From: an uncultured Dehalococcoidales bacterium
GTDB lineage: Bacteria; Chloroflexota; Dehalococcoidia; GIF9; AB-539-J10
Length of the DNA: 27,670 bases
Reading direction: 5' to 3'
Assembly (NCBI GenBank): GCA_964499375.1
Contig: CAZCKW010000001.1
Span: 1-27,670, forward strand
Within the stretch, counting starts at the first letter, position 1; each line of letters begins with the position of its first letter. Of this stretch, positions 3,464-17,560 are shown in pieces. The notes under the pieces are model-generated. The model did no database searches, was not told where the DNA came from, and saw nothing but the letters and a program-made list of their open reading frames with translations. The position numbers and the translations under genes are program-made.

Positions 3464-4162
3464 ATGAGAGACACATACAGGAAATCACGACTTATGACAA
3501 AGCCAAGGTTTGTTCCGCTTGCGAATTACCGCGAATACCCTGTAGAGGAGATGAAGCAACGGGCGGCTACTTTCTACGCAGACATGCAACGGAGACGCAC
3601 GGTACGTCACTTTTCGGACCGACCGATACCACTTAAGATAATAGAGAATTGCCTGCGCGCATCTTCAACCGCACCCAGTGGTGCTCACATGCAACCATGG
3701 CATTTTTCGGTTGTCACCGACCCTGCGGTAAAGCGGCAGATTCGGGAAGCAGCCGAAGAACGTGAGCATGAATTCTATAAAAAATATGCCCCCCAAGAAT
3801 GGCTGGAAGCCCTGTTCCCTTTAGGTACCGATGAGCATAAGCCTTTTCTGGAGACCGCGCCATGCCTGATTGTTATTTTCGCACAGCGTTACGGGCTGTC
3901 ACCAGACGAAGGAATAATCAAGCACTACTATGTCTCTGAATCAGTCGGCATCGCGACCGGTATACTTATTACAGCAATTCACCAAGCCGGTCTCGTTTCG
4001 CTCACCTATACCCCCAACCCGATGTATTTCCTGAGTGATATCCTCGGTCGACCTGCCAACGAGAAACCGTTTCTAGTCCTGGTGGTCGGCTATCCTTCTG
4101 ACGATGCAGTGGTGCCTGACCTTCACCGGAAGTCATTGCAAGAGATAGCCTCATTCATTTGA
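3464..4162 (+). CDS. iyd: Iodotyrosine deiodinase-like flavoprotein (nitroreductase superfamily); start may be ATG 3494
   Basis: FMN-binding RRTVRHFS and [13 protein letters not shown] lid signature E-x3-Y (EHEFY) plus [32 protein letters not shown] and LTYTPNPM carry the IYD-type Thr. Confidence 0.85.
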
Positions 4163-6959: not shown

Positions 6960-7004
6960 GAGATTATAGTGAAAACAGTACTTGCGATAAAGGATAAACC
7001 TACA

Positions 7005-9080
7005 ATGAGAACCTTCCCTTTGGAAAAGATACGAAATATAGGAATCATCGCTCATATAGACGCTGGTAAAACCACCGCCACAGAGAGGATTCTCTATCAT
7101 ACAGGGCATACCTATAAAATAGGAGGGGTGGATGAAGGGACAGCAGTAATGGATTGGATGCTGCAGGAACGAGAGCGCGGCATTACTATCACCTCAGCCG
7201 CCACTACCTGTCACTGGGATAAGCATCGCATCAATATTATCGACACTCCAGGACATGTGGATTTCACTGCTGAGGTTGAACGTAGTCTCCGAGTACTGGA
7301 TGGTGGGATTGTAATCCTTGATGCTGTAGCCGGGGTAGAAGCTCAATCAGAGACTGTTTGGCGCCAGGCGAATAAATATAATGTTGCCAGGATCTGCTTT
7401 ATCAATAAAATGGATAGGATTGGCTCAGATTATTATCACACAATCAACATGATTCAGGAGCGATTGCGAGCCAATGTATTACCAATACAGCTCCCACTGG
7501 GTACAGAGAGCTCTTTTCGGGGCATTATTGACCTTGTAGAGAACAAGGCAATTATCTTCCCTGACGACCCCCAACTGTTGCCAGCGGAGGACTCTATACC
7601 TGAAAGTGACAGGGCTATTGCGACTAAATACCGTCAATCGTTGATTGAGAAATTAGCCGAGAACGATGACCAGATCATGCTTGAATATCTGGAGGGTCAC
7701 GAAATTCCCGTTTCTCAACTCAAAACAGCCATAAGAAGACTGACTATAAATAACCTAATAGTACCCATACTGTGCGGTAGCGCTTTAAAAGGTAAGGGGA
7801 TTCGACCCTTGCTTGATGCCACTGTAAATTACCTTCCTTCACCTTTAGATATTCCTCCTATTCAAGCTATCAATCCCAGGAATGGGCAGAACCTCTTTTG
7901 CCTGGCAAACGACGAAGAACCTCTTGCTTGTCTAGCTTTTAAGGTTGTTTCCGACCCATTTATGGGCCGATTAACCTTCCTGCGAGTATATTCAGGCAAA
8001 GTGAAGTCTGGAGTACAGGTTCTCAACTCCACCAGGAGTGAGAAGGAACGCGTGGGAAGGTTATTTATTATGCATGCCAATCATCGAGAAGAACTCGATG
8101 AAGCCGACACTGGTAGCATTGTAGCTACTGTAGGTTTTAAGAAAACATCCACAGGTGACACTCTTTGCGACACTATTCGGCCGGTACTTTTTGAGGCCAT
8201 ACATTTTGCCGAGCCAGTACTTTCAATGGCTATTGAACCCAAAAGTAAAGCTGACCAAGATAAGTTAGGGGATACTCTTAGCAAGCTTGCCGAAGAGGAT
8301 CCCACCTTTAAGTTCCACAATGACCCAGAAACAAGTCAGATGCTTATCTCAGGAATGGGTGAACTACACCTTGAAGTAGTGGCAGAACGTATATCCAGCG
8401 AGTTTGGCGTGAAAGTAAAGGTGGGCGAGCCTCAAGTAGCTTATAAAGAAACGATTACTGCACCTGTAGAATCTGAAGGAAGGTTCATCCGCCAATCTGG
8501 CGGCAAAGGACAATATGGGCACGTCTGGCTCAAGCTTGAGCCTGGCGAGAGAGGAAGCGGGTTCGAGTTTAATAACCAAATCCGGAGTGGAGCTATACCC
8601 AAGGAATTTATCTCACCAATAGCAAGCGGAGTTAAGGACGCTCTGCAAAATGGGCCGATGGCTGGTTATCCAACGGTAGATATTAAAGTGAGTTTATATG
8701 ACGGCAGTTATCATGAGGTTGATTCTTCCGACCTGGCTTTCAAGATAGCAGGTTCCATTGCTACTAAGAACGGTATGGCGAAAGCAAACCCCATTCTTTT
8801 AGAACCTATTATGAAGGGCGAGATATTAACTCCATCACAATTCTTGGGAGATATTATCGGCGATTTGAATTCTCGGAGGGCACGTATCGATAACGTTGAA
8901 ACTAATGAAGGTTCTTCTGTTATCCGCTGCTTTATTCCTCTGGCCAGGACTTTTGGTTTTGTTAGCGACTTGAGATCACTCAGTCAAGGGAGAGCGACCT
9001 ACGCTATGGAGTTTTACCGCTATGAAGAGTTGCCGCATGGTTTGGGTGAGCAAATTGCGGCTAGCTCCAGGATACGATAA
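7005..9080 (+). CDS. fusA: Elongation factor G (start reassigned to ATG 7005; track uses GTG 6969)
   Basis: [38 protein letters not shown]; purine-rich AAGGA before 7005. Confidence 0.98.
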
Positions 9081-9388
9081 TGAGCAGTAATAAGGTTCGT
9101 GTTAAAATCAAGGGCTTTGATCACAGGTTAGTGGATCAATCAGTTAAGCAAATAATAGAAGCAGTAGAACGTACGGGAGCCATCATTACCGGTCCTGTAC
9201 CTTTGCCTACACACATAGAGAAATTCTGTGTCATACGCTCTTCAAATATTGATAAAGATTCAAGAGAACAATTTGAAATTCGCACTCATAAACGGCTTAT
9301 CGATATTTTACGGCCAACTTCTAAAACTATAGACGCCTTGACTCAAATTGATTTGCCTTCTGGCGTAAAGATAGATATAAAGTTATAG
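9080..9388 (+). CDS. rpsJ: 30S ribosomal protein S10
   Basis: [25 protein letters not shown]; TAATG overlap with fusA. Confidence 0.99.
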
Positions 9389-9395
9389 TAAAGCT

Positions 9396-10013
9396 ATGTT
9401 TTCAGGTATTATTGGCAGGAAAATAGGTATGACGCAGGTCCCTCTGGAAAGTGGGGAGATGGCAGCAGTAACTGCCATAGAAGCGGGACCTTGCTTGGTT
9501 ACTCAAATAAAAAATCAAGCCAAGGATGGTTATTGTGCTGTCCAGTTAGGTTTTATGGAAACTAAGCGCCTTAATGCTCCACAAAGAGGGCATCTAAAAG
9601 GACTAGATAAAATGAGGTATCTCCATGAATTCAGGATTGAGGATACAGGGCCAGTTAAACATGGTGATAAGGTAGATGTTGGTTTTTTAAACTCAGGTGA
9701 TCTTATTAAGGTAAGCGGATTATCCAAGGGCAAGGGCTTTGCCGGTGTGGTGAAACGTTACCACTTTGCCGGTGGACCGAAAACTCACGGGCAATCTGAT
9801 CGGCATCGTGCTCCAGGTTCAATCGGCGCCACTACCTACCCAGGTCGAGTGCTCAAAGGGAAACGCATGTCAGGACACATGGGAAATAGGAAGACCACTG
9901 TACGTAATCTTGAGGTGGTTAGAGTTGATACAAGCCAGAATTTACTTCTGGTTAGAGGAGCAGTGCCCGGAGCTAAAAGGGGCCTGCTAATTATCCAAAA
10001 GGCGGGTAAATAG
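9396..10013 (+). CDS. rplC: 50S ribosomal protein L3
   Basis: GRKIGMTQ, SKGKGFAGVVKRYHF, THGQSDRHRAPGSIG. Confidence 0.99.
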   Translation: MFSGIIGRKIGMTQVPLESGEMAAVTAIEAGPCLVTQIKNQAKDGYCAVQLGFMETKRLNAPQRGHLKGLDKMRYLHEFRIEDTGPVKHGDKVDVGFLNSGDLIKVSGLSKGKGFAGVVKRYHFAGGPKTHGQSDRHRAPGSIGATTYPGRVLKGKRMSGHMGNRKTTVRNLEVVRVDTSQNLLLVRGAVPGAKRGLLIIQKAGK

Positions 10014-10016
10014 TAA

Positions 10017-10664
10017 ATGCAGGTTCCCGTTTATAGTTTAAAAGGGGAAATTGTGGACCACGTAGATATTAGTGAGGATGTTTTCGGCATCCCCCTTAAC
10101 AAAGCAGTGGTTCAGCAAGCAATGGTGAGGCAACTAGCTAATAACAGGCAAGGAACCGCATCCACAAAGAGCAGGTGCGAAGTCAAAGGAAGTACGAGGA
10201 AACTCTATTCCCAGAAGCACACTGGAAGGGCAAGGAGAGGGAATATAAAATCACCACTGCTCAGAGGAGGTGGGGTGGCTTTCGGGCCTAAACCACGGTC
10301 ATATCGCCAATCTATGCCCAAGAAAATGAGACGTTTAGCCTTAAGGTGTGTTCTTTCCTCTAAAGCCAGAGAAGAGGATTTAAAAGTAATAGAAGAACCT
10401 TTCTTCGAAAGACCCAAAACGCAAGGCATGATTGATATTCTATCGGCACTCGATATTAATTCCACTGCTCTAATCGTTACCGAGCGTTCCTATCCCAATC
10501 TAGTCAAATCAGCACGTAATCTGGCTGATACTAAAGTTCTACCATCAGATCTAATTAATGTGCTGGATCTACTTTCTTATAAAGCATTGATAATCACCAT
10601 TTCCGCACTTCATAATATGGAGAAAATTTGGGGAAGAGAGGGAATCAACAGTGCATCTCTATGA
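10017..10664 (+). CDS. rplD: 50S ribosomal protein L4
   Basis: RQGTASTK, QKHTGRARRG, RGGGVAFGPKPR. Confidence 0.99.
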   Translation: MQVPVYSLKGEIVDHVDISEDVFGIPLNKAVVQQAMVRQLANNRQGTASTKSRCEVKGSTRKLYSQKHTGRARRGNIKSPLLRGGGVAFGPKPRSYRQSMPKKMRRLALRCVLSSKAREEDLKVIEEPFFERPKTQGMIDILSALDINSTALIVTERSYPNLVKSARNLADTKVLPSDLINVLDLLSYKALIITISALHNMEKIWGREGINSASL

Positions 10665-10935
10665 GGTAATGCGCCGCCCTCTCATTACAGAGAAGGCGAC
10701 CATGCTTAAGGAAGAGAATAAATATGTATTTGAAGTAGCCAGGAAGGCTACCAAGCCTCAGATTAAGGAAGCAGTTGAAAAAGCCTTTAAAGTGAAAGTG
10801 ACTAAAGTCAATACTATAACCGTTCCAGGAAAGACAAGGAGGAGGGGCAGAAAAGAAATAACAAGTCCAACCTGGAAGAAAGCAATAGTTGAATTAGAGC
10901 CAGAGGCTAAGATCACCTTCTTTGAAGGTGTCTAA
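10651..10935 (+). CDS. rplW: 50S ribosomal protein L23
   Basis: RPLITEKA, NKYVFEV, WKKAIV; GTG start overlapping rplD. Confidence 0.98.
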   Translation: MHLYEVMRRPLITEKATMLKEENKYVFEVARKATKPQIKEAVEKAFKVKVTKVNTITVPGKTRRRGRKEITSPTWKKAIVELEPEAKITFFEGV

Positions 10936-10964
10936 TTTATTATATACTGTATGTGAGGTAAGTT

Positions 10965-11060
10965 TTGGGATCAGTTATTAAGTGGAGAAAGAAAAAGATG
11001 TCCAAGCATCAACATAAGAAACTTCTTAAGAAAACTCGTTGGCAAAGAAGGCATCCATGA
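10965..11060 (+). CDS. Small ribosomal protein bS22 / mS38 homolog (AURKAIP1/COX24 domain), 31 aa; not in the ORF track
   Basis: TTG start 5 nt after SD GAGGT (10955-59). MGSVIKWRKKKMSKHQHKKLLKKTRWQRRHP aligns ungapped to mycobacterial bS22 as recalled ([33 protein letters not shown]), about 20/31 identical. Confidence 0.88.
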   Translation: MGSVIKWRKKKMSKHQHKKLLKKTRWQRRHP

Positions 11061-11090
11061 TGTTAGCGCAAATGTATGAGGTGATATGTA

Positions 11091-11912
11091 GTGTTAAAAA
11101 CCTATAATCCAACATCTCCGGGCAGGAGAGGCAAGGTTAGCACCACCTTTGATGAACTTAGCAAAGTGCCTCCTGAGAAATCGCTGCTTTTGCCACTTAA
11201 AAGGAACGCAGGACGGAATAGTCGAGGCGTGATAACAGTGCGTCATCGAGGTGGAGGAAGCAAGCGTAAGCTTCGCATTATCGATTTCAGCAGGAATAAG
11301 CTGGGTGTTCCTGGAAAGGTAGCCTCCATTGAGTATGATCCCAACCGTTCAGCCAGAATTGCCCTAATCCACTATGTTGATGGGGAAAAGCGTTATATCC
11401 TCTCTCCTTTGGGCCTAACTTCAGGCGATACCATAGAGGCAGGTGAAGAAGTCGACATAAAACCAGGAAATAGCCTGCCATTGAGCTCAATCCCTGTGGG
11501 CACTTTAGTTCATAATATCGAGCTTGAGCCCGGCAAAGGAGGACAGCTTGCTCGCAGCGCTGGCAACGCTGCCCAAATTATCAGTAAAGAGGGTAAGTAT
11601 GTTTTGCTCCGCCTACCATCAAGAGAATTGCGTAAATTTCACTATAAATGCAAGGCTACTATCGGTCAGGTGGGTAATGTTGACCACGAGAATATAAAAT
11701 TTGGCAAAGCTGGATCCAAGAGGTGGCTAGGCATACGTCCTACAGTTCGAGGATCTGCCATGACACCTCGAGACCATCCTCACGGTGGTGGTGAAGGTAG
11801 ATCCCCAATAGGATTAAAACATCCCAAAACGCCCTTGGGGAAACCAGCCCTGGGTTACAAGACCCGTAGCCGCAAGAAATCAAATAAAATGATAGTTAAA
11901 CGGAGGAACTAA
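11091..11912 (+). CDS. rplB: 50S ribosomal protein L2
   Basis: [45 protein letters not shown]; SD GAGGTGA. Confidence 0.99.
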
Positions 11913-11913
11913 G

Positions 11914-12204
11914 GTGTCTAGGTCACTCAAGAAAGGGCCATATTGTGATGCTAAATTGCTTAAAAAGATAGAGGCGCTTAATAGTTCGGGGGAAAAAACA
12001 GTGCTAAAGACCTGGTCCCGCGCCTCCACAATTTTTCCACAGATGATAGGACACACCATTGCCGTACATAACGGCAGGAAACACATAGCCACTTTCATCA
12101 CAGAAAACATGGTAGGCCATAAACTGGCTGAATTCGTACCCACCAGGACATTTAGAGGGCATATCACTAAAGCCAAAGTAACTGTGCAGGATAAAAGGAG
12201 CTAA
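11914..12204 (+). CDS. rpsS: 30S ribosomal protein S19
   Basis: [25 protein letters not shown]. Confidence 0.99.
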
Positions 12205-12211
12205 GTAAAGG

Positions 12212-12547
12212 GTGAATGTTAAAGCTGTAGCTAAAGATATCGGTATTTCACCTCAGAAGGTTCGCCTGGCGATAGACATGGTTAAAGGTAAGAAAGTTGA
12301 CGAAGCCTTAACTATTCTCAGCTTCGTGCCCACCCCAGCAGCCGAAGCTGTGGCCAAGGTTATTAAATCAGCGGCTGCTAACGCTGAAAACAATTTTCAA
12401 ATACCCTCTGATAACCTTAAAATCTCCAGTGTCTTTGCTAATCAAGGACATACTTTAAAAAGGTTTCGTCCTCAATCAAGGGGTAGAATAAGCCCTATTT
12501 TGAAGAGGTCCAGTCATATTACAGTTTTCGTTAAGGAGGGAAACTAA
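12212..12547 (+). CDS. rplV: 50S ribosomal protein L22
   Basis: ISPQKVRL, SAAANAENN, KRSSHITV. Confidence 0.99.
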   Translation: MNVKAVAKDIGISPQKVRLAIDMVKGKKVDEALTILSFVPTPAAEAVAKVIKSAAANAENNFQIPSDNLKISSVFANQGHTLKRFRPQSRGRISPILKRSSHITVFVKEGN

Positions 12548-12549
12548 TC

Positions 12550-13230
12550 TTGGGACATAAAGTTCATCCTCAAGGCTTCAGGTTAGGCATTACACACGAT
12601 TGGCAAGCTAAGTGGTATGCAGAAGCCAACTATGCAAAGTTTTTACTTGATGATCTGAAACTACGTAACGCCATCGAAAAACAATGCACTGGTGGAGGTG
12701 TGGCTCGAGTAGAAATCGAACGAACGGGCAACGAGCTATGCCTGACCCTATATTCTGCCCGCCCTGGCATTTTGATTGGCAGGGGAGGTCAAAACGTGGA
12801 ATTACTGCGTTCGGAGATGGAAAGGGTTATTGGCAATAGGGTTAGATTAACCATCAGAGAAGTTGAGCATCCTGAACTTGAAGCTTGTCTGGTAGCCCGA
12901 AATATAGCTGACCGGATCGAAGGCAGAGTGCCTTTCCGTCACGCTATGAAGCAAGCTACTTTTCGAACCATACAGGCTGGTGCTAAAGGAGTAAAGGTAA
13001 GATGCTCTGGAAGGCTTGGTGGACGCGAAATTGCCAGATCTGAGGGCATGCATCTGGGCCAAATGCCCTTACATAAATTATGCGCTGATATCAGTTATGG
13101 TTTTACTGAAGCTCACACTGTCATGGGGCGCATTGGGGTAAAGGTATGGATTTATAGAGGGGATATTGTTTCCGAGGTAAGAAGAGAGAATGTTACAACC
13201 AAAACGAGTGAAATACCGCAAAGTTCATAG
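12550..13230 (+). CDS. rpsC: 30S ribosomal protein S3
   Basis: [36 protein letters not shown]; TTG start. Confidence 0.99.
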
Positions 13231-13609
13231 AGGGCGACTAAAAGGAGCAGCTCACAGTGGGGATACTATTTCCTTCGGTGATTTTGGTCTAAGAGCTGAG
13301 GAATCCGCCTGGATAACAGCAAGGCAAATTGAGGCCACTCGCCGAGTCTTCGTGCGCTATTTGCGACGTGGCGGAAAAATGTGGATACGCATTTTCCCAG
13401 ACAAATCCGTAACCAAGAAACCAGCGGAGACCAGGATGGGTAGTGGTAAAGGAGCCCCCGATCATTGGGTAGCTGTGGTTAAGCGAGGCAGAATCATGTT
13501 TGAATTGAGCGGTCTAAGCAAAGAGACAGCTCAACAGGCAGTGCATCTCGCCTCCTACAAACTTCCCATTACTACTAGCTTCGCAGCAAGAGAGGCAACA
13601 AAAAGTTGA
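13190..13609 (+). CDS. rplP: 50S ribosomal protein L16
   Basis: [18 protein letters not shown]. Confidence 0.99.
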
Positions 13610-17011: not shown

Positions 17012-17560
17012 ATGAAAGCTATTACGCGGGTAATCGGTAAAAAGGCCAGGATTGATGCTTCGGAGCTAGAATTCGAGGAGAAATTAATAGCTGTTAATCG
17101 CGTAACCAAGGTGGTCAAAGGCGGCAAACGGCTTCGTTTCCGAGCCCTGCTGATAATTGGTGATGGCAAGGGACATGTGGGAGTAGGCTTAGCCAAAGCA
17201 ACCGGTGTTGCTGAAGCGATACGTAAGGCCAGCGCGGCAGCACGGAAAGAGCTAATCGAGGTACCAATTGTTAACAATACCATTCCCCATGAAATTTTAG
17301 CCAAGTACGGGGCATCTAAGCTTTTACTTAAGCCAGCAGCATCTGGCAGCGGTATAATCGCCAGCAATACTGTCCGCGCAGTAGCCGAATTGGTTGGCAT
17401 AAAAGACATTATTGGCAAATCTCTTGGTAGTTCTAACCGAATTAATGTAGTCAGAGCCACCATGCTTGCTCTAGCCAGTCTGAAGAAACCTAAAGAGTCT
17501 ATAATTGAAGGCAAAACTGACTTTGAAATTCAACAGGATGAAGCAAATGAGACAGAATGA
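17012..17560 (+). CDS. rpsE: 30S ribosomal protein S5
   Basis: NRVTKVVKGG, SLGSSNRINVVRAT; SD GAGGT upstream. Confidence 0.99.
   Translation: MKAITRVIGKKARIDASELEFEEKLIAVNRVTKVVKGGKRLRFRALLIIGDGKGHVGVGLAKATGVAEAIRKASAAARKELIEVPIVNNTIPHEILAKYGASKLLLKPAASGSGIIASNTVRAVAELVGIKDIIGKSLGSSNRINVVRATMLALASLKKPKESIIEGKTDFEIQQDEANETE

What the first reader, a model, noticed from the sequence alone, without database searches (positions are those of the whole stretch)
10965..11060. Hidden bS22/mS38-like ribosomal protein gene inserted inside the S10 operon (rplW-[bS22]-rplB)
Seen: the normally tight rplW-rplB junction is 155 bp and holds an SD plus TTG-start ORF, MGSVIKWRKKKMSKHQHKKLLKKTRWQRRHP. The SD contexts before it and before rplB are similar (TGTATG-TGAGGT and TGTAT-GAGGT), and a TATACT -10-like box lies at 10943-48. 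Established: bS22 (homolog of mitoribosomal mS38; AURKAIP1/COX24, PF08213) was seen in mycobacterial and a few other 30S structures near h27/h44/h45 and is absent from E. coli-type ribosomes. Inference: this lineage makes bS22 co-regulated with core r-proteins. I do not know of this operon position being described, and 31-aa TTG genes are commonly unannotated.
Basis: partly seen in the sequence, partly recalled or inferred. Interest (0 to 1): 0.82.

Follow-up and report, generated by a model that had tools for sequence, protein, structure and literature searches.

The report
bS22 ribosomal gene inside S10 operon
The 31-codon reading frame between the L23 and L2 genes is a real, strongly conserved gene for the tiny, already known ribosomal protein bS22 in an uncultured Dehalococcoidia bacterium; only its position inside the S10 ribosomal operon, shared by one group of Dehalococcoidia, is unusual.

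Summary
rplW ends at 10935 and rplB starts at 11091, a 155-nt spacer. It carries a Shine-Dalgarno site (GTGAGGT, 10953-10959) and a TTG-started 31-codon ORF at 10965-11060.

The peptide matches NCBIfam NF047430 (ribo_bS22, equivalog) at 64.1 bits against a cut-off of 34, and Pfam PF08213 at 37.2 bits against 23. Its best solved-structure matches are bS22 chains of actinobacterial ribosomes. The genome has a single copy.

- **Own order:** 40 of 41 genomes have bS22, and all 20 relatives' loci examined read L4-L23-bS22-L2-S19.
- **Rest of the class:** only four other Dehalococcoidia families share this position. 26 sampled class genomes keep bS22 elsewhere and 27 have none.
- **Other lineages:** in other Chloroflexota and in the Nitrospirota, Desulfobacterota, Acidobacteriota and Actinomycetota loci sampled, bS22 lies among unrelated genes.
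- **Selection:** crude pN/pS is about 0.14.
- **Origin:** an AU test does not reject a single origin of the operon position.
- **Expression:** metatranscriptome contigs identical to the window bridge both junctions. DNA carry-over is not excluded.

NCBI already names relatives' copies "AURKAIP1/COX24 domain-containing protein". This scan found the same arrangement in at least 14 other genomes. It is a known protein with a modest gene-order novelty.

The parts
10651..10935 (+). rplW (uL23), 94 aa, GTG start, TAA stop
   Evidence: ORF list. Relatives' L23 are 55-82% identical and lie directly upstream of bS22.
10936..10964 (+). 29-nt spacer with the Shine-Dalgarno site GTGAGGT (10953-10959). It also holds TATACT (10943-10948), which has no -35 partner.
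   Evidence: The promoter scan finds no hexamer pair here. The spacer RNA has no special fold (z = 0.05).
10965..11060 (+). bS22 gene (rpsV-like, AURKAIP1/COX24 family). 31 codons, TTG start, TGA stop; 9 K, 4 R and 3 H with no acidic residue; pI about 12.
   Evidence: NF047430 64.1 bits (cut-off 34). PF08213 37.2 bits (cut-off 23). PDB bS22 chains 8crx_X, 9e16_x, 32nj_x/5o5j/5o61. Single copy in the genome. Conserved in 40 of 41 order genomes. Composition.
11061..11090 (+). 30-nt spacer with the rplB Shine-Dalgarno site TGAGGTG (11077-11083)
11091..11912 (+). rplB (uL2), 273 aa, GTG start
   Evidence: Relatives' L2 are 61-84% identical and lie directly downstream of bS22.
9080..13609 (+). Surrounding S10-type operon: rpsJ, rplC, rplD, rplW, bS22, rplB, rpsS, rplV, rpsC, rplP, all on the + strand and tightly packed, downstream of fusA (6969-9080)
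   Evidence: ORF list. L4, L23, L2 and S19 were matched by tblastn in relatives. The other names come from the recognisable translations and were not run against HMMs.

Best explanation
Window 10965-11060 encodes ribosomal protein bS22, the roughly 30-residue, very basic, single-helix small-subunit protein homologous to the C-terminal domain of mitochondrial mS38/Cox24/AURKAIP1.

**Function (by homology).** In solved actinobacterial and Bacteroidota ribosomes this protein sits between 16S rRNA helices h44 and h45 near the decoding centre and touches H70 of 23S rRNA. The same role is inferred here from sequence alone.

**Position.** In this organism, an uncultured member of class Dehalococcoidia (Chloroflexota), the genome's only copy has been moved into the S10 operon between rplW and rplB. 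It has its own Shine-Dalgarno site and a weak (TTG) start.

**Expression (inferred).** It is most likely transcribed on the same polycistronic mRNA as the core ribosomal proteins and translated independently from that Shine-Dalgarno site, so its synthesis would be tied to theirs.

**History.** The position is a derived state. It is shared by the whole order and by four further Dehalococcoidia families, and is compatible with a single relocation event. Elsewhere in the class, the phylum and the other phyla sampled, bS22 is a stand-alone gene among unrelated neighbours, or is absent.

**Shown:** family membership, conservation, purifying selection, the gene order and its phylogenetic distribution.
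**Inferred:** incorporation into the 30S subunit, co-transcription, and a single origin.
For: - **Family match:** NF047430 ribo_bS22 (equivalog) 64.1 bits against cut-off 34, profile positions 1-30 of 31. PF08213 37.2 bits against 23.
- **Solved structures:** the best PDB sequence matches are bS22 chains of ribosomes (8crx, 9e16, 5o5j/5o61, 6dzi), followed by mS38.
- **Copy number:** one copy in the genome.
- **Own order:** present in 40 of 41 genomes; the one without it is 67% complete. All 20 relatives' loci read L4-L23-bS22-L2-S19.
- **Gene features:** the 26 in-operon copies are all intact at 30-31 codons, with starts varying between TTG, GTG and ATG, and an SD-like purine run upstream in most.
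- **Selection:** crude Nei-Gojobori pN/pS is 0.14 over 325 pairs. Within the family pN is 0.014-0.07 while pS is 0.19-0.86.
- **Junction size:** the L23-L2 gap is 119-407 nt where bS22 is present and mostly 2-100 nt in 53 Dehalococcoidia loci without it there.
- **Rest of the phylum:** of 40 phylum loci outside the order only one has the operon position.
- **Species-genome scan:** of 46 loci only the 6 Dehalococcoidia-type ones have it.
- **Neighbours elsewhere:** variable and non-ribosomal, including GHMP kinase, PAC2, HIT, thiolase and UbiA.
- **Single origin:** the AU test does not reject one clade of all in-operon rows (p = 0.87; the constrained tree is 57 lnL better than the quick free tree).
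- **Expression:** metatranscriptome contigs identical to the window cover 10831-11007, 10978-11142, 10992-11173 and 10917-11068.
- **No competing RNA element:** no Rfam family and no unusual RNA fold in the spacer.
Against: - No physical evidence exists that the protein is in this organism's ribosome, and no ribosome structure exists for any Chloroflexota that I could find.
- Position 16 is Gln in this family, where M. smegmatis has the Lys16 reported to contact the h44 backbone (bioRxiv 10.1101/2023.03.31.535098). Most other Chloroflexota copies keep Lys there.
- The RNA evidence consists of short unstranded contigs at depth 2-5 from libraries that may contain DNA. The runs were chosen because they hold this stretch.
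- The three-protein tree is poorly resolved (25 of 76 branches open). The free tree splits the in-operon rows into 4 groups, so a single origin is allowed rather than shown.
Confidence: 0.93

Rival explanations
1. It is a genuine bS22 gene but is transcribed from its own internal promoter (the TATACT box at 10943-10948), so it is not simply co-regulated with the S10 operon.
For: TATACT is present 17 nt upstream of the start. A terminator-like hairpin at 10914-10930, followed by a T-rich run, lies at the end of rplW.
Against: - The scan found no -35/-10 pair there, and the total number of promoter-like and terminator-like sites in the region is within the shuffled expectation.
- The hairpin is made of the conserved C-terminal codons of L23 (..TFFEGV).
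- The upstream sequence is not conserved in relatives, where the L23 stop to bS22 start distance is often only -1 to 25 nt, too short for a promoter.
- An RNA-library contig identical to the window runs from 105 nt inside rplW into the ORF.
Confidence: 0.07
2. The ORF is a chance open frame or a short regulatory upstream ORF for rplB, in a spacer whose real function is RNA-level regulation.
For: The frame is very short, uses a TTG start and lies just upstream of rplB. In E. coli, ribosomal protein operons often carry regulatory RNA elements (PMC3616713, listed).
Against: - HMM E-values are 9e-18 and 3e-9, above the curated cut-offs.
- The same peptide is conserved at loci far from any ribosomal gene in other lineages.
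- pN/pS is about 0.14.
- There is no Rfam match, and the fold z-score is 0.05.
Confidence: 0.01
3. It is a bS22-family peptide that no longer acts as a stoichiometric ribosomal protein in this lineage, for example one used only under some conditions or having another RNA-binding role.
For: bS22 is non-essential in M. smegmatis. It is absent from many Dehalococcoidia, including complete single-contig genomes. Lys16 is replaced by Gln in this family.
Against: Placement inside the most conserved ribosomal operon, strong purifying selection and retention in reduced genomes of about 1-2.4 Mb all argue for a core ribosomal role.
Confidence: 0.04

Closest known systems
Actinobacterial bS22 (M. smegmatis MSMEG_0945, M. 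tuberculosis Rv0550B, Cutibacterium acnes; PDB 5o5j, 5o61, 8crx and others)
   Same: Same family by the NCBIfam equivalog model and by Pfam. The alignment over residues 1-29/30 is ungapped, with the shared signature MGSVIK.R.K.M.K..H.KLL..TR.QRR. Size is similar (31 against 33 aa), as is the extreme basicity.
   Different: The gene lies inside the S10 operon here. In the Actinomycetota loci sampled it sits among GHMP-kinase, PAC2, peptidase C26 and aminotransferase genes. The window protein has Trp7, Gln16 and Trp26 where the mycobacterial protein has Lys7, Lys16 and Val26. There is no structural or biochemical evidence for the Chloroflexota protein.
Bacteroidota bS22 (F. johnsoniae Fjoh_1533, P. 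gingivalis; PDB 7JIL; PMC7797042, PMC12123416)
   Same: A basic helix of about 30 residues, assigned to the same ribosomal site between h44 and h45 and contacting H70.
   Different: The Bacteroidota proteins were recognised by structure and differ in sequence. They did not appear among the sequence hits. The window protein is a clear sequence relative of the actinobacterial type.
Mitochondrial mS38 / AURKAIP1 / yeast Cox24 (PF08213)
   Same: The window peptide aligns to the conserved C-terminal domain of mS38, residues 129-155 of the 199-aa human protein (E = 0.006), and passes the Pfam gathering score.
   Different: The eukaryotic proteins are 110-500 aa with long N-terminal parts. The bacterial protein is the bare domain.
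bS22 genes of other Chloroflexota (Anaerolineae and most Dehalococcoidia families)
   Same: 52-87% identical peptides of 29-32 aa, one copy per genome in all but one genome sampled.
   Different: These are stand-alone genes with variable, non-ribosomal neighbours. The window's clade has the gene between rplW and rplB.

Membership tests
bS22 (NCBIfam NF047430, equivalog) | Whole-protein score above the curated cut-off of the equivalog HMM | tested here: met
   64.1 bits against a cut-off of 34, E = 8.9e-18, profile positions 1-30 of 31. The six-frame genome search gives 59.2 bits.
bS22 / mS38 C-terminal domain (Pfam PF08213, COX24_C, formerly DUF1713) | Score above the Pfam gathering threshold | tested here: met
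   37.2 bits against 23, E = 2.7e-9, profile positions 1-29 of 33.
bS22 | Length of about 30-33 residues, very basic (pI above 12 reported for the known members), no acidic residues | tested here: met
   31 aa; 9 Lys, 4 Arg, 3 His, 0 Asp/Glu; computed pI 12.0. Reference values: pI 12.75 at 33 aa and pI 12.7 at 30 aa.
bS22 | Sequence similarity to chains modelled as bS22 in solved ribosomes | tested here: met
   8crx_X E = 1.1e-6, 9e16_x E = 2.5e-6, 32nj_x/5o5j/5o61 E = 2.6e-6, all ungapped over residues 1-29/30.
bS22 | Lys16, reported to contact the h44 backbone in M. smegmatis. This is a functional residue, not a formal family criterion. | tested here: not met
   The window has Gln16, as do 6 of the 7 own-family relatives examined (the seventh has Arg). 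Other families of the order and most Chloroflexota keep Lys16. The neighbouring basic residues Lys14, His15, His17, Lys18 and Lys19 are kept.
bS22 | Physical presence in the 30S subunit between h44 and h45 | not testable with these tools
   Needs ribosome purification with mass spectrometry or cryo-EM from a clade member. No Chloroflexota ribosome paper mentioning bS22 was found.
S10 operon member (co-transcribed ribosomal protein gene) | Same strand, short intergenic distances and no terminator or promoter between the flanking ribosomal genes, with an arrangement conserved across relatives | tested here: met
   Spacers are 29 and 30 nt in the window and -1 to 89 nt and 8 to 77 nt in relatives, with one 301-nt exception. 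The order is conserved in 20 of 20 order relatives' loci and in four further families. No promoter pair was found.
S10 operon member (co-transcribed ribosomal protein gene) | A single transcript spanning rplW, bS22 and rplB | tested here: inconclusive
   Contigs from three metatranscriptomic libraries, identical to the window, bridge the rplW/bS22 and bS22/rplB junctions. They are short, unstranded and low-depth, and DNA carry-over was not controlled.

The most novel reading that the evidence does not exclude
In one clade of Dehalococcoidia a lineage-restricted accessory ribosomal protein (bS22) was captured once by the otherwise near-invariant S10 operon. It thereby became a stoichiometrically co-expressed core component, and some descendants later lost it, leaving relics such as the MGSQVKRRVKKRSK frame in the rplW-rplB spacer of family f17. 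This would be a rare, datable case of an accessory protein being recruited into the conserved core operon, and a usable phylogenetic marker for these uncultured orders.
Probability: 0.35. Interest if true: 0.4.

Novelty: new member of a known kind. Interest (0 to 1): 0.27.

Why it matters
bS22 is a recently recognised, patchily distributed ribosomal protein that lies next to the decoding centre and the aminoglycoside site. So far it has been studied only in Actinomycetota and Bacteroidota.

This work shows that the protein is widespread but patchy in Chloroflexota: 63 of 301 genomes sampled. One Dehalococcoidia clade has placed its only copy between rplW and rplB, one of the most conserved gene junctions in bacteria.

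- It gives a clean gene-order marker for these uncultured lineages.
- It gives a natural case of an accessory ribosomal protein being wired into core ribosomal gene expression.
- It is a reminder that annotation pipelines must keep calling 30-codon genes with TTG or GTG starts.

It does not reveal a new protein family or mechanism.

Tried and rejected
- **Structured RNA in the spacer:** no Rfam family in the whole window at gathering score, and the fold of 10900-11100 is no better than shuffles (z = 0.05). Rejected.
- **Internal promoter or terminator:** the consensus scan gives no promoter pair before the ORF. The terminator-like hairpin at 10914-10930 lies within a count that matches shuffles and is built from conserved L23 codons. 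Not supported.
- **A conserved 'ancestral' neighbourhood for bS22 outside the operon:** clustering of flanking ORFs over 79 out-of-operon loci found only small, lineage-local clusters. No common context emerged.
- **Sequence signature of the in-operon copies:** Ala/Ser13 with Leu20 is typical of them, but Leu20 also occurs in some copies elsewhere. It is not diagnostic.
- **Relics of bS22 in long rplW-rplB spacers without the gene** (L121, L142, L147, L157, L137): none found. Only L109 and L113 (family f17) give weak, non-significant matches (E = 0.04 and 0.11 at Z = 1000).
- **Start-codon contrast:** the in-operon copies use 13 TTG, 4 GTG and 9 ATG, against 21 ATG of 22 in class copies elsewhere. 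However, TTG and GTG are also common in bS22 genes of other Chloroflexota classes, and relatives are not independent, so I draw no inference.
- **Literature on the operon position:** searches found nothing.
- **Structure prediction:** not run. A 31-residue helix would add nothing to the HMM and PDB matches.

Full report
**1. What is in the sequence**

The window carries a typical S10-type ribosomal operon on the + strand: fusA 6969-9080, then rpsJ, rplC, rplD, rplW, rplB, rpsS, rplV, rpsC and rplP.

- rplW is 10651-10935, with its TAA stop at 10933-10935.
- rplB starts with GTG at 11091, so the two genes are 155 nt apart.
- The spacer holds GTGAGGT at 10953-10959 and, 5 nt later, a TTG-started ORF of 31 codons at 10965-11060 (TGA stop).
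- A second Shine-Dalgarno site, TGAGGTG at 11077-11083, lies 7 nt before the rplB start.

**2. What the ORF is**

The peptide has 31 aa, 9 Lys, 4 Arg and 3 His, no acidic residue, and a pI of about 12.

- It scores 64.1 bits against NCBIfam NF047430, '30S ribosomal protein bS22', an equivalog model with a cut-off of 34.
- It scores 37.2 bits against Pfam PF08213 (COX24_C), whose gathering score is 23.
- Against all PDB chains, the best matches are the bS22 chains of actinobacterial ribosomes (8crx, 9e16, 5o5j/5o61, 6dzi), aligned without gaps over residues 1-29/30. The C-terminal domain of mitochondrial mS38 follows.
- The genome, a 1.15-Mb MAG in 201 contigs and 81% complete, has exactly one copy.
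- There is no Rfam family anywhere in the window, and the spacer RNA folds no better than shuffled sequence (z = 0.05). A structured-RNA reading has no support.

**3. Conservation and selection**

- 40 of 41 genomes of the same order have a bS22 match above the cut-off. The one without it is only 67% complete.
- In all 20 relatives' loci fetched the order is L4-L23-bS22-L2-S19.
- The 26 in-operon copies I collected are all intact at 30-31 codons. Starts are 13 TTG, 4 GTG and 9 ATG, and most have a purine-rich SD-like run upstream.
- A crude Nei-Gojobori count gives pN/pS of about 0.14 over 325 pairs. Synonymous sites are near saturation between families. Within the window's family pN is 0.014-0.07 while pS is 0.19-0.86.

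This is a translated gene under purifying selection.

**4. Where the arrangement occurs**

Record titles place the relatives in Dehalococcoidia, Chloroflexota.

*Across the phylum.* bS22 is patchy, present in 63 of 301 sampled genomes. Of 40 loci from outside the order, only one (G151, same class) has bS22 between L23 and L2.

*Across the class.* I surveyed 201 genomes and then located rplB in the 50 bS22-bearing genomes from outside the own order.
- bS22 lies directly upstream of rplB in the own order (families f1-f5) and in families f9, f78, f80 and f100.
- 26 other sampled genomes have it on another contig or far away.
- Many families have none, including complete single-contig genomes of 1.4-1.9 Mb.

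*The junction itself.* The L23-L2 distance is 119-407 nt where bS22 is present. It is mostly 2-100 nt in the 53 loci where it is not.

*Other phyla.* In a scan of one genome per species, only the six Dehalococcoidia-type loci had the operon position. The loci from Anaerolineae, Nitrospirota, Desulfobacterota, Acidobacteriota and Actinomycetota did not.

*Neighbours outside the operon.* They are variable and non-ribosomal: GHMP kinase, PAC2, HIT, thiolase, UbiA, peptidase C26 and aminotransferase.

Every genome but one has a single copy. The in-operon state is therefore a relocation, not an extra paralogue.

**5. One event or several?**

I built a quick maximum-likelihood tree of L23+L2+S19 (79 rows, 460 columns).
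- It recovers the own order as one group, all in-operon (SH-aLRT 90).
- It leaves the backbone unresolved. The in-operon label needs 4 changes on that tree, but starred branches force only 1.
- Constraining all 26 in-operon rows to one clade gives a tree 57 log-likelihood units better than the short free search. The AU test does not reject it (p = 0.87).

A single relocation is therefore allowed, and mildly favoured, but not shown. The group was defined by the trait, and the markers flank the insertion.

**6. Expression**

Public runs holding this stretch come from lake-water, sediment and cold-seep metagenomes and include metatranscriptomic libraries. Contigs from three RNA libraries are identical to the window:

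| Run | Window span | What it covers |
|---|---|---|
| X7 | 10831-11007 | 105 nt of rplW into bS22 |
| X7 | 10978-11142 | bS22 into 52 nt of rplB |
| X16 | 10992-11173 | bS22 into rplB |
| X17 | 10917-11068 | end of rplW and the whole ORF |

This is what co-transcription predicts. However, the contigs are short, unstranded and at depth 2-5. The runs were selected for holding this stretch, and DNA in the libraries was not excluded. I rate co-transcription as likely but unproven.

The consensus scan finds no promoter pair before the ORF. The terminator-like hairpin at 10914-10930 is built from the conserved last codons of L23, within an overall count no higher than in shuffles. In relatives the L23 stop to bS22 start distance is often under 25 nt, which leaves no room for a promoter.

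**7. How it most likely works**

By homology, the peptide should form the single basic helix that inserts between h44 and h45 of 16S rRNA near the decoding centre and reaches H70 of 23S rRNA. This is what is seen in M. smegmatis, F. johnsoniae and P. gingivalis ribosomes (PMC7797042; PMC12123416; bioRxiv 10.1101/2023.03.31.535098). Its place in the operon should tie its synthesis to that of the core proteins.

One difference is worth noting. The window's family has Gln at position 16, where the mycobacterial Lys16 is reported to contact the h44 backbone. Other families of the order keep Lys.

**8. Comparison with what is known, and novelty**

The protein is a clear member of a known family with a curated equivalog model. 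Orthologues in related MAGs are already named 'AURKAIP1/COX24 domain-containing protein' at NCBI. The window's exact peptide is not in the 15-billion-protein collection, so this copy may be uncalled.

I found no paper linking bS22 with Chloroflexota, Dehalococcoidia or the S10 operon.

This scan has noted the same arrangement in at least 14 other genomes. Earlier follow-ups reached the same verdict, and I re-derived it independently here.

The finding is real but ordinary in kind: a known small ribosomal protein with an unusual, clade-specific and apparently unpublished gene position.

**9. Verdict**

- Observation confirmed.
- Interpretation supported, except for the internal-promoter hint and the 'hidden' claim.
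- Novelty class: new member of a known kind.
- Interest: about 0.27.

Noticed in passing
L109:1411-1500 (G278, family f17) and L113 (G293, same family), rplW-rplB spacer: In a Dehalococcoidia family with no bS22 match anywhere, the 86-nt rplW-rplB spacer of L109 holds an ATG frame reading MGSQVKRRVKKRSK, which runs into rplB out of frame. It resembles the bS22 N-terminus. L113 has a stop-ridden version of it. These were the two best of 178 spacer segments against a bS22 profile, but the matches are weak (E = 0.04 and 0.11 at Z = 1000). It may be a decayed relic of an in-operon bS22.
   Followed up: partly
L017:1594-1897 (G023, same family as the window): A 301-nt insert lies between bS22 and rplB. 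It has A/T-rich imperfect inverted arms of about 50 nt (74% complementary) flanking a G/C-rich core with its own palindromes, and looks like a small MITE-like element inside the S10 operon.
   Followed up: partly
window 11010-11012 (codon 16 of bS22): Gln16 replaces the Lys16 that contacts h44 in M. smegmatis bS22. 6 of the 7 own-family relatives examined also have Gln; one has Arg.
   Followed up: partly
window 10914-10930: A 7-bp hairpin, CACCTTC-TTT-GAAGGTG, followed by a T-rich run lies at the very end of rplW. It is formed by the conserved ..TFFEGV codons, and the total number of such sites in the region is no more than in shuffles.
   Followed up: partly
G504 (class Dehalococcoidia): C156:6711-6803 and C218:1855-1947: This is the only sampled genome with two bS22 matches, both outside the S10 operon. 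It could be a paralogue pair or a mixed bin.
   Followed up: no
window 17547-17560, 2956-2958 and 3464-4162: Other first-reader notes on this window were listed: absence of rpmD (uL30) between rpsE and rplO, an in-frame TAG in a double hot-dog gene, and an iodotyrosine-deiodinase-like gene. I did not examine them.
   Followed up: no
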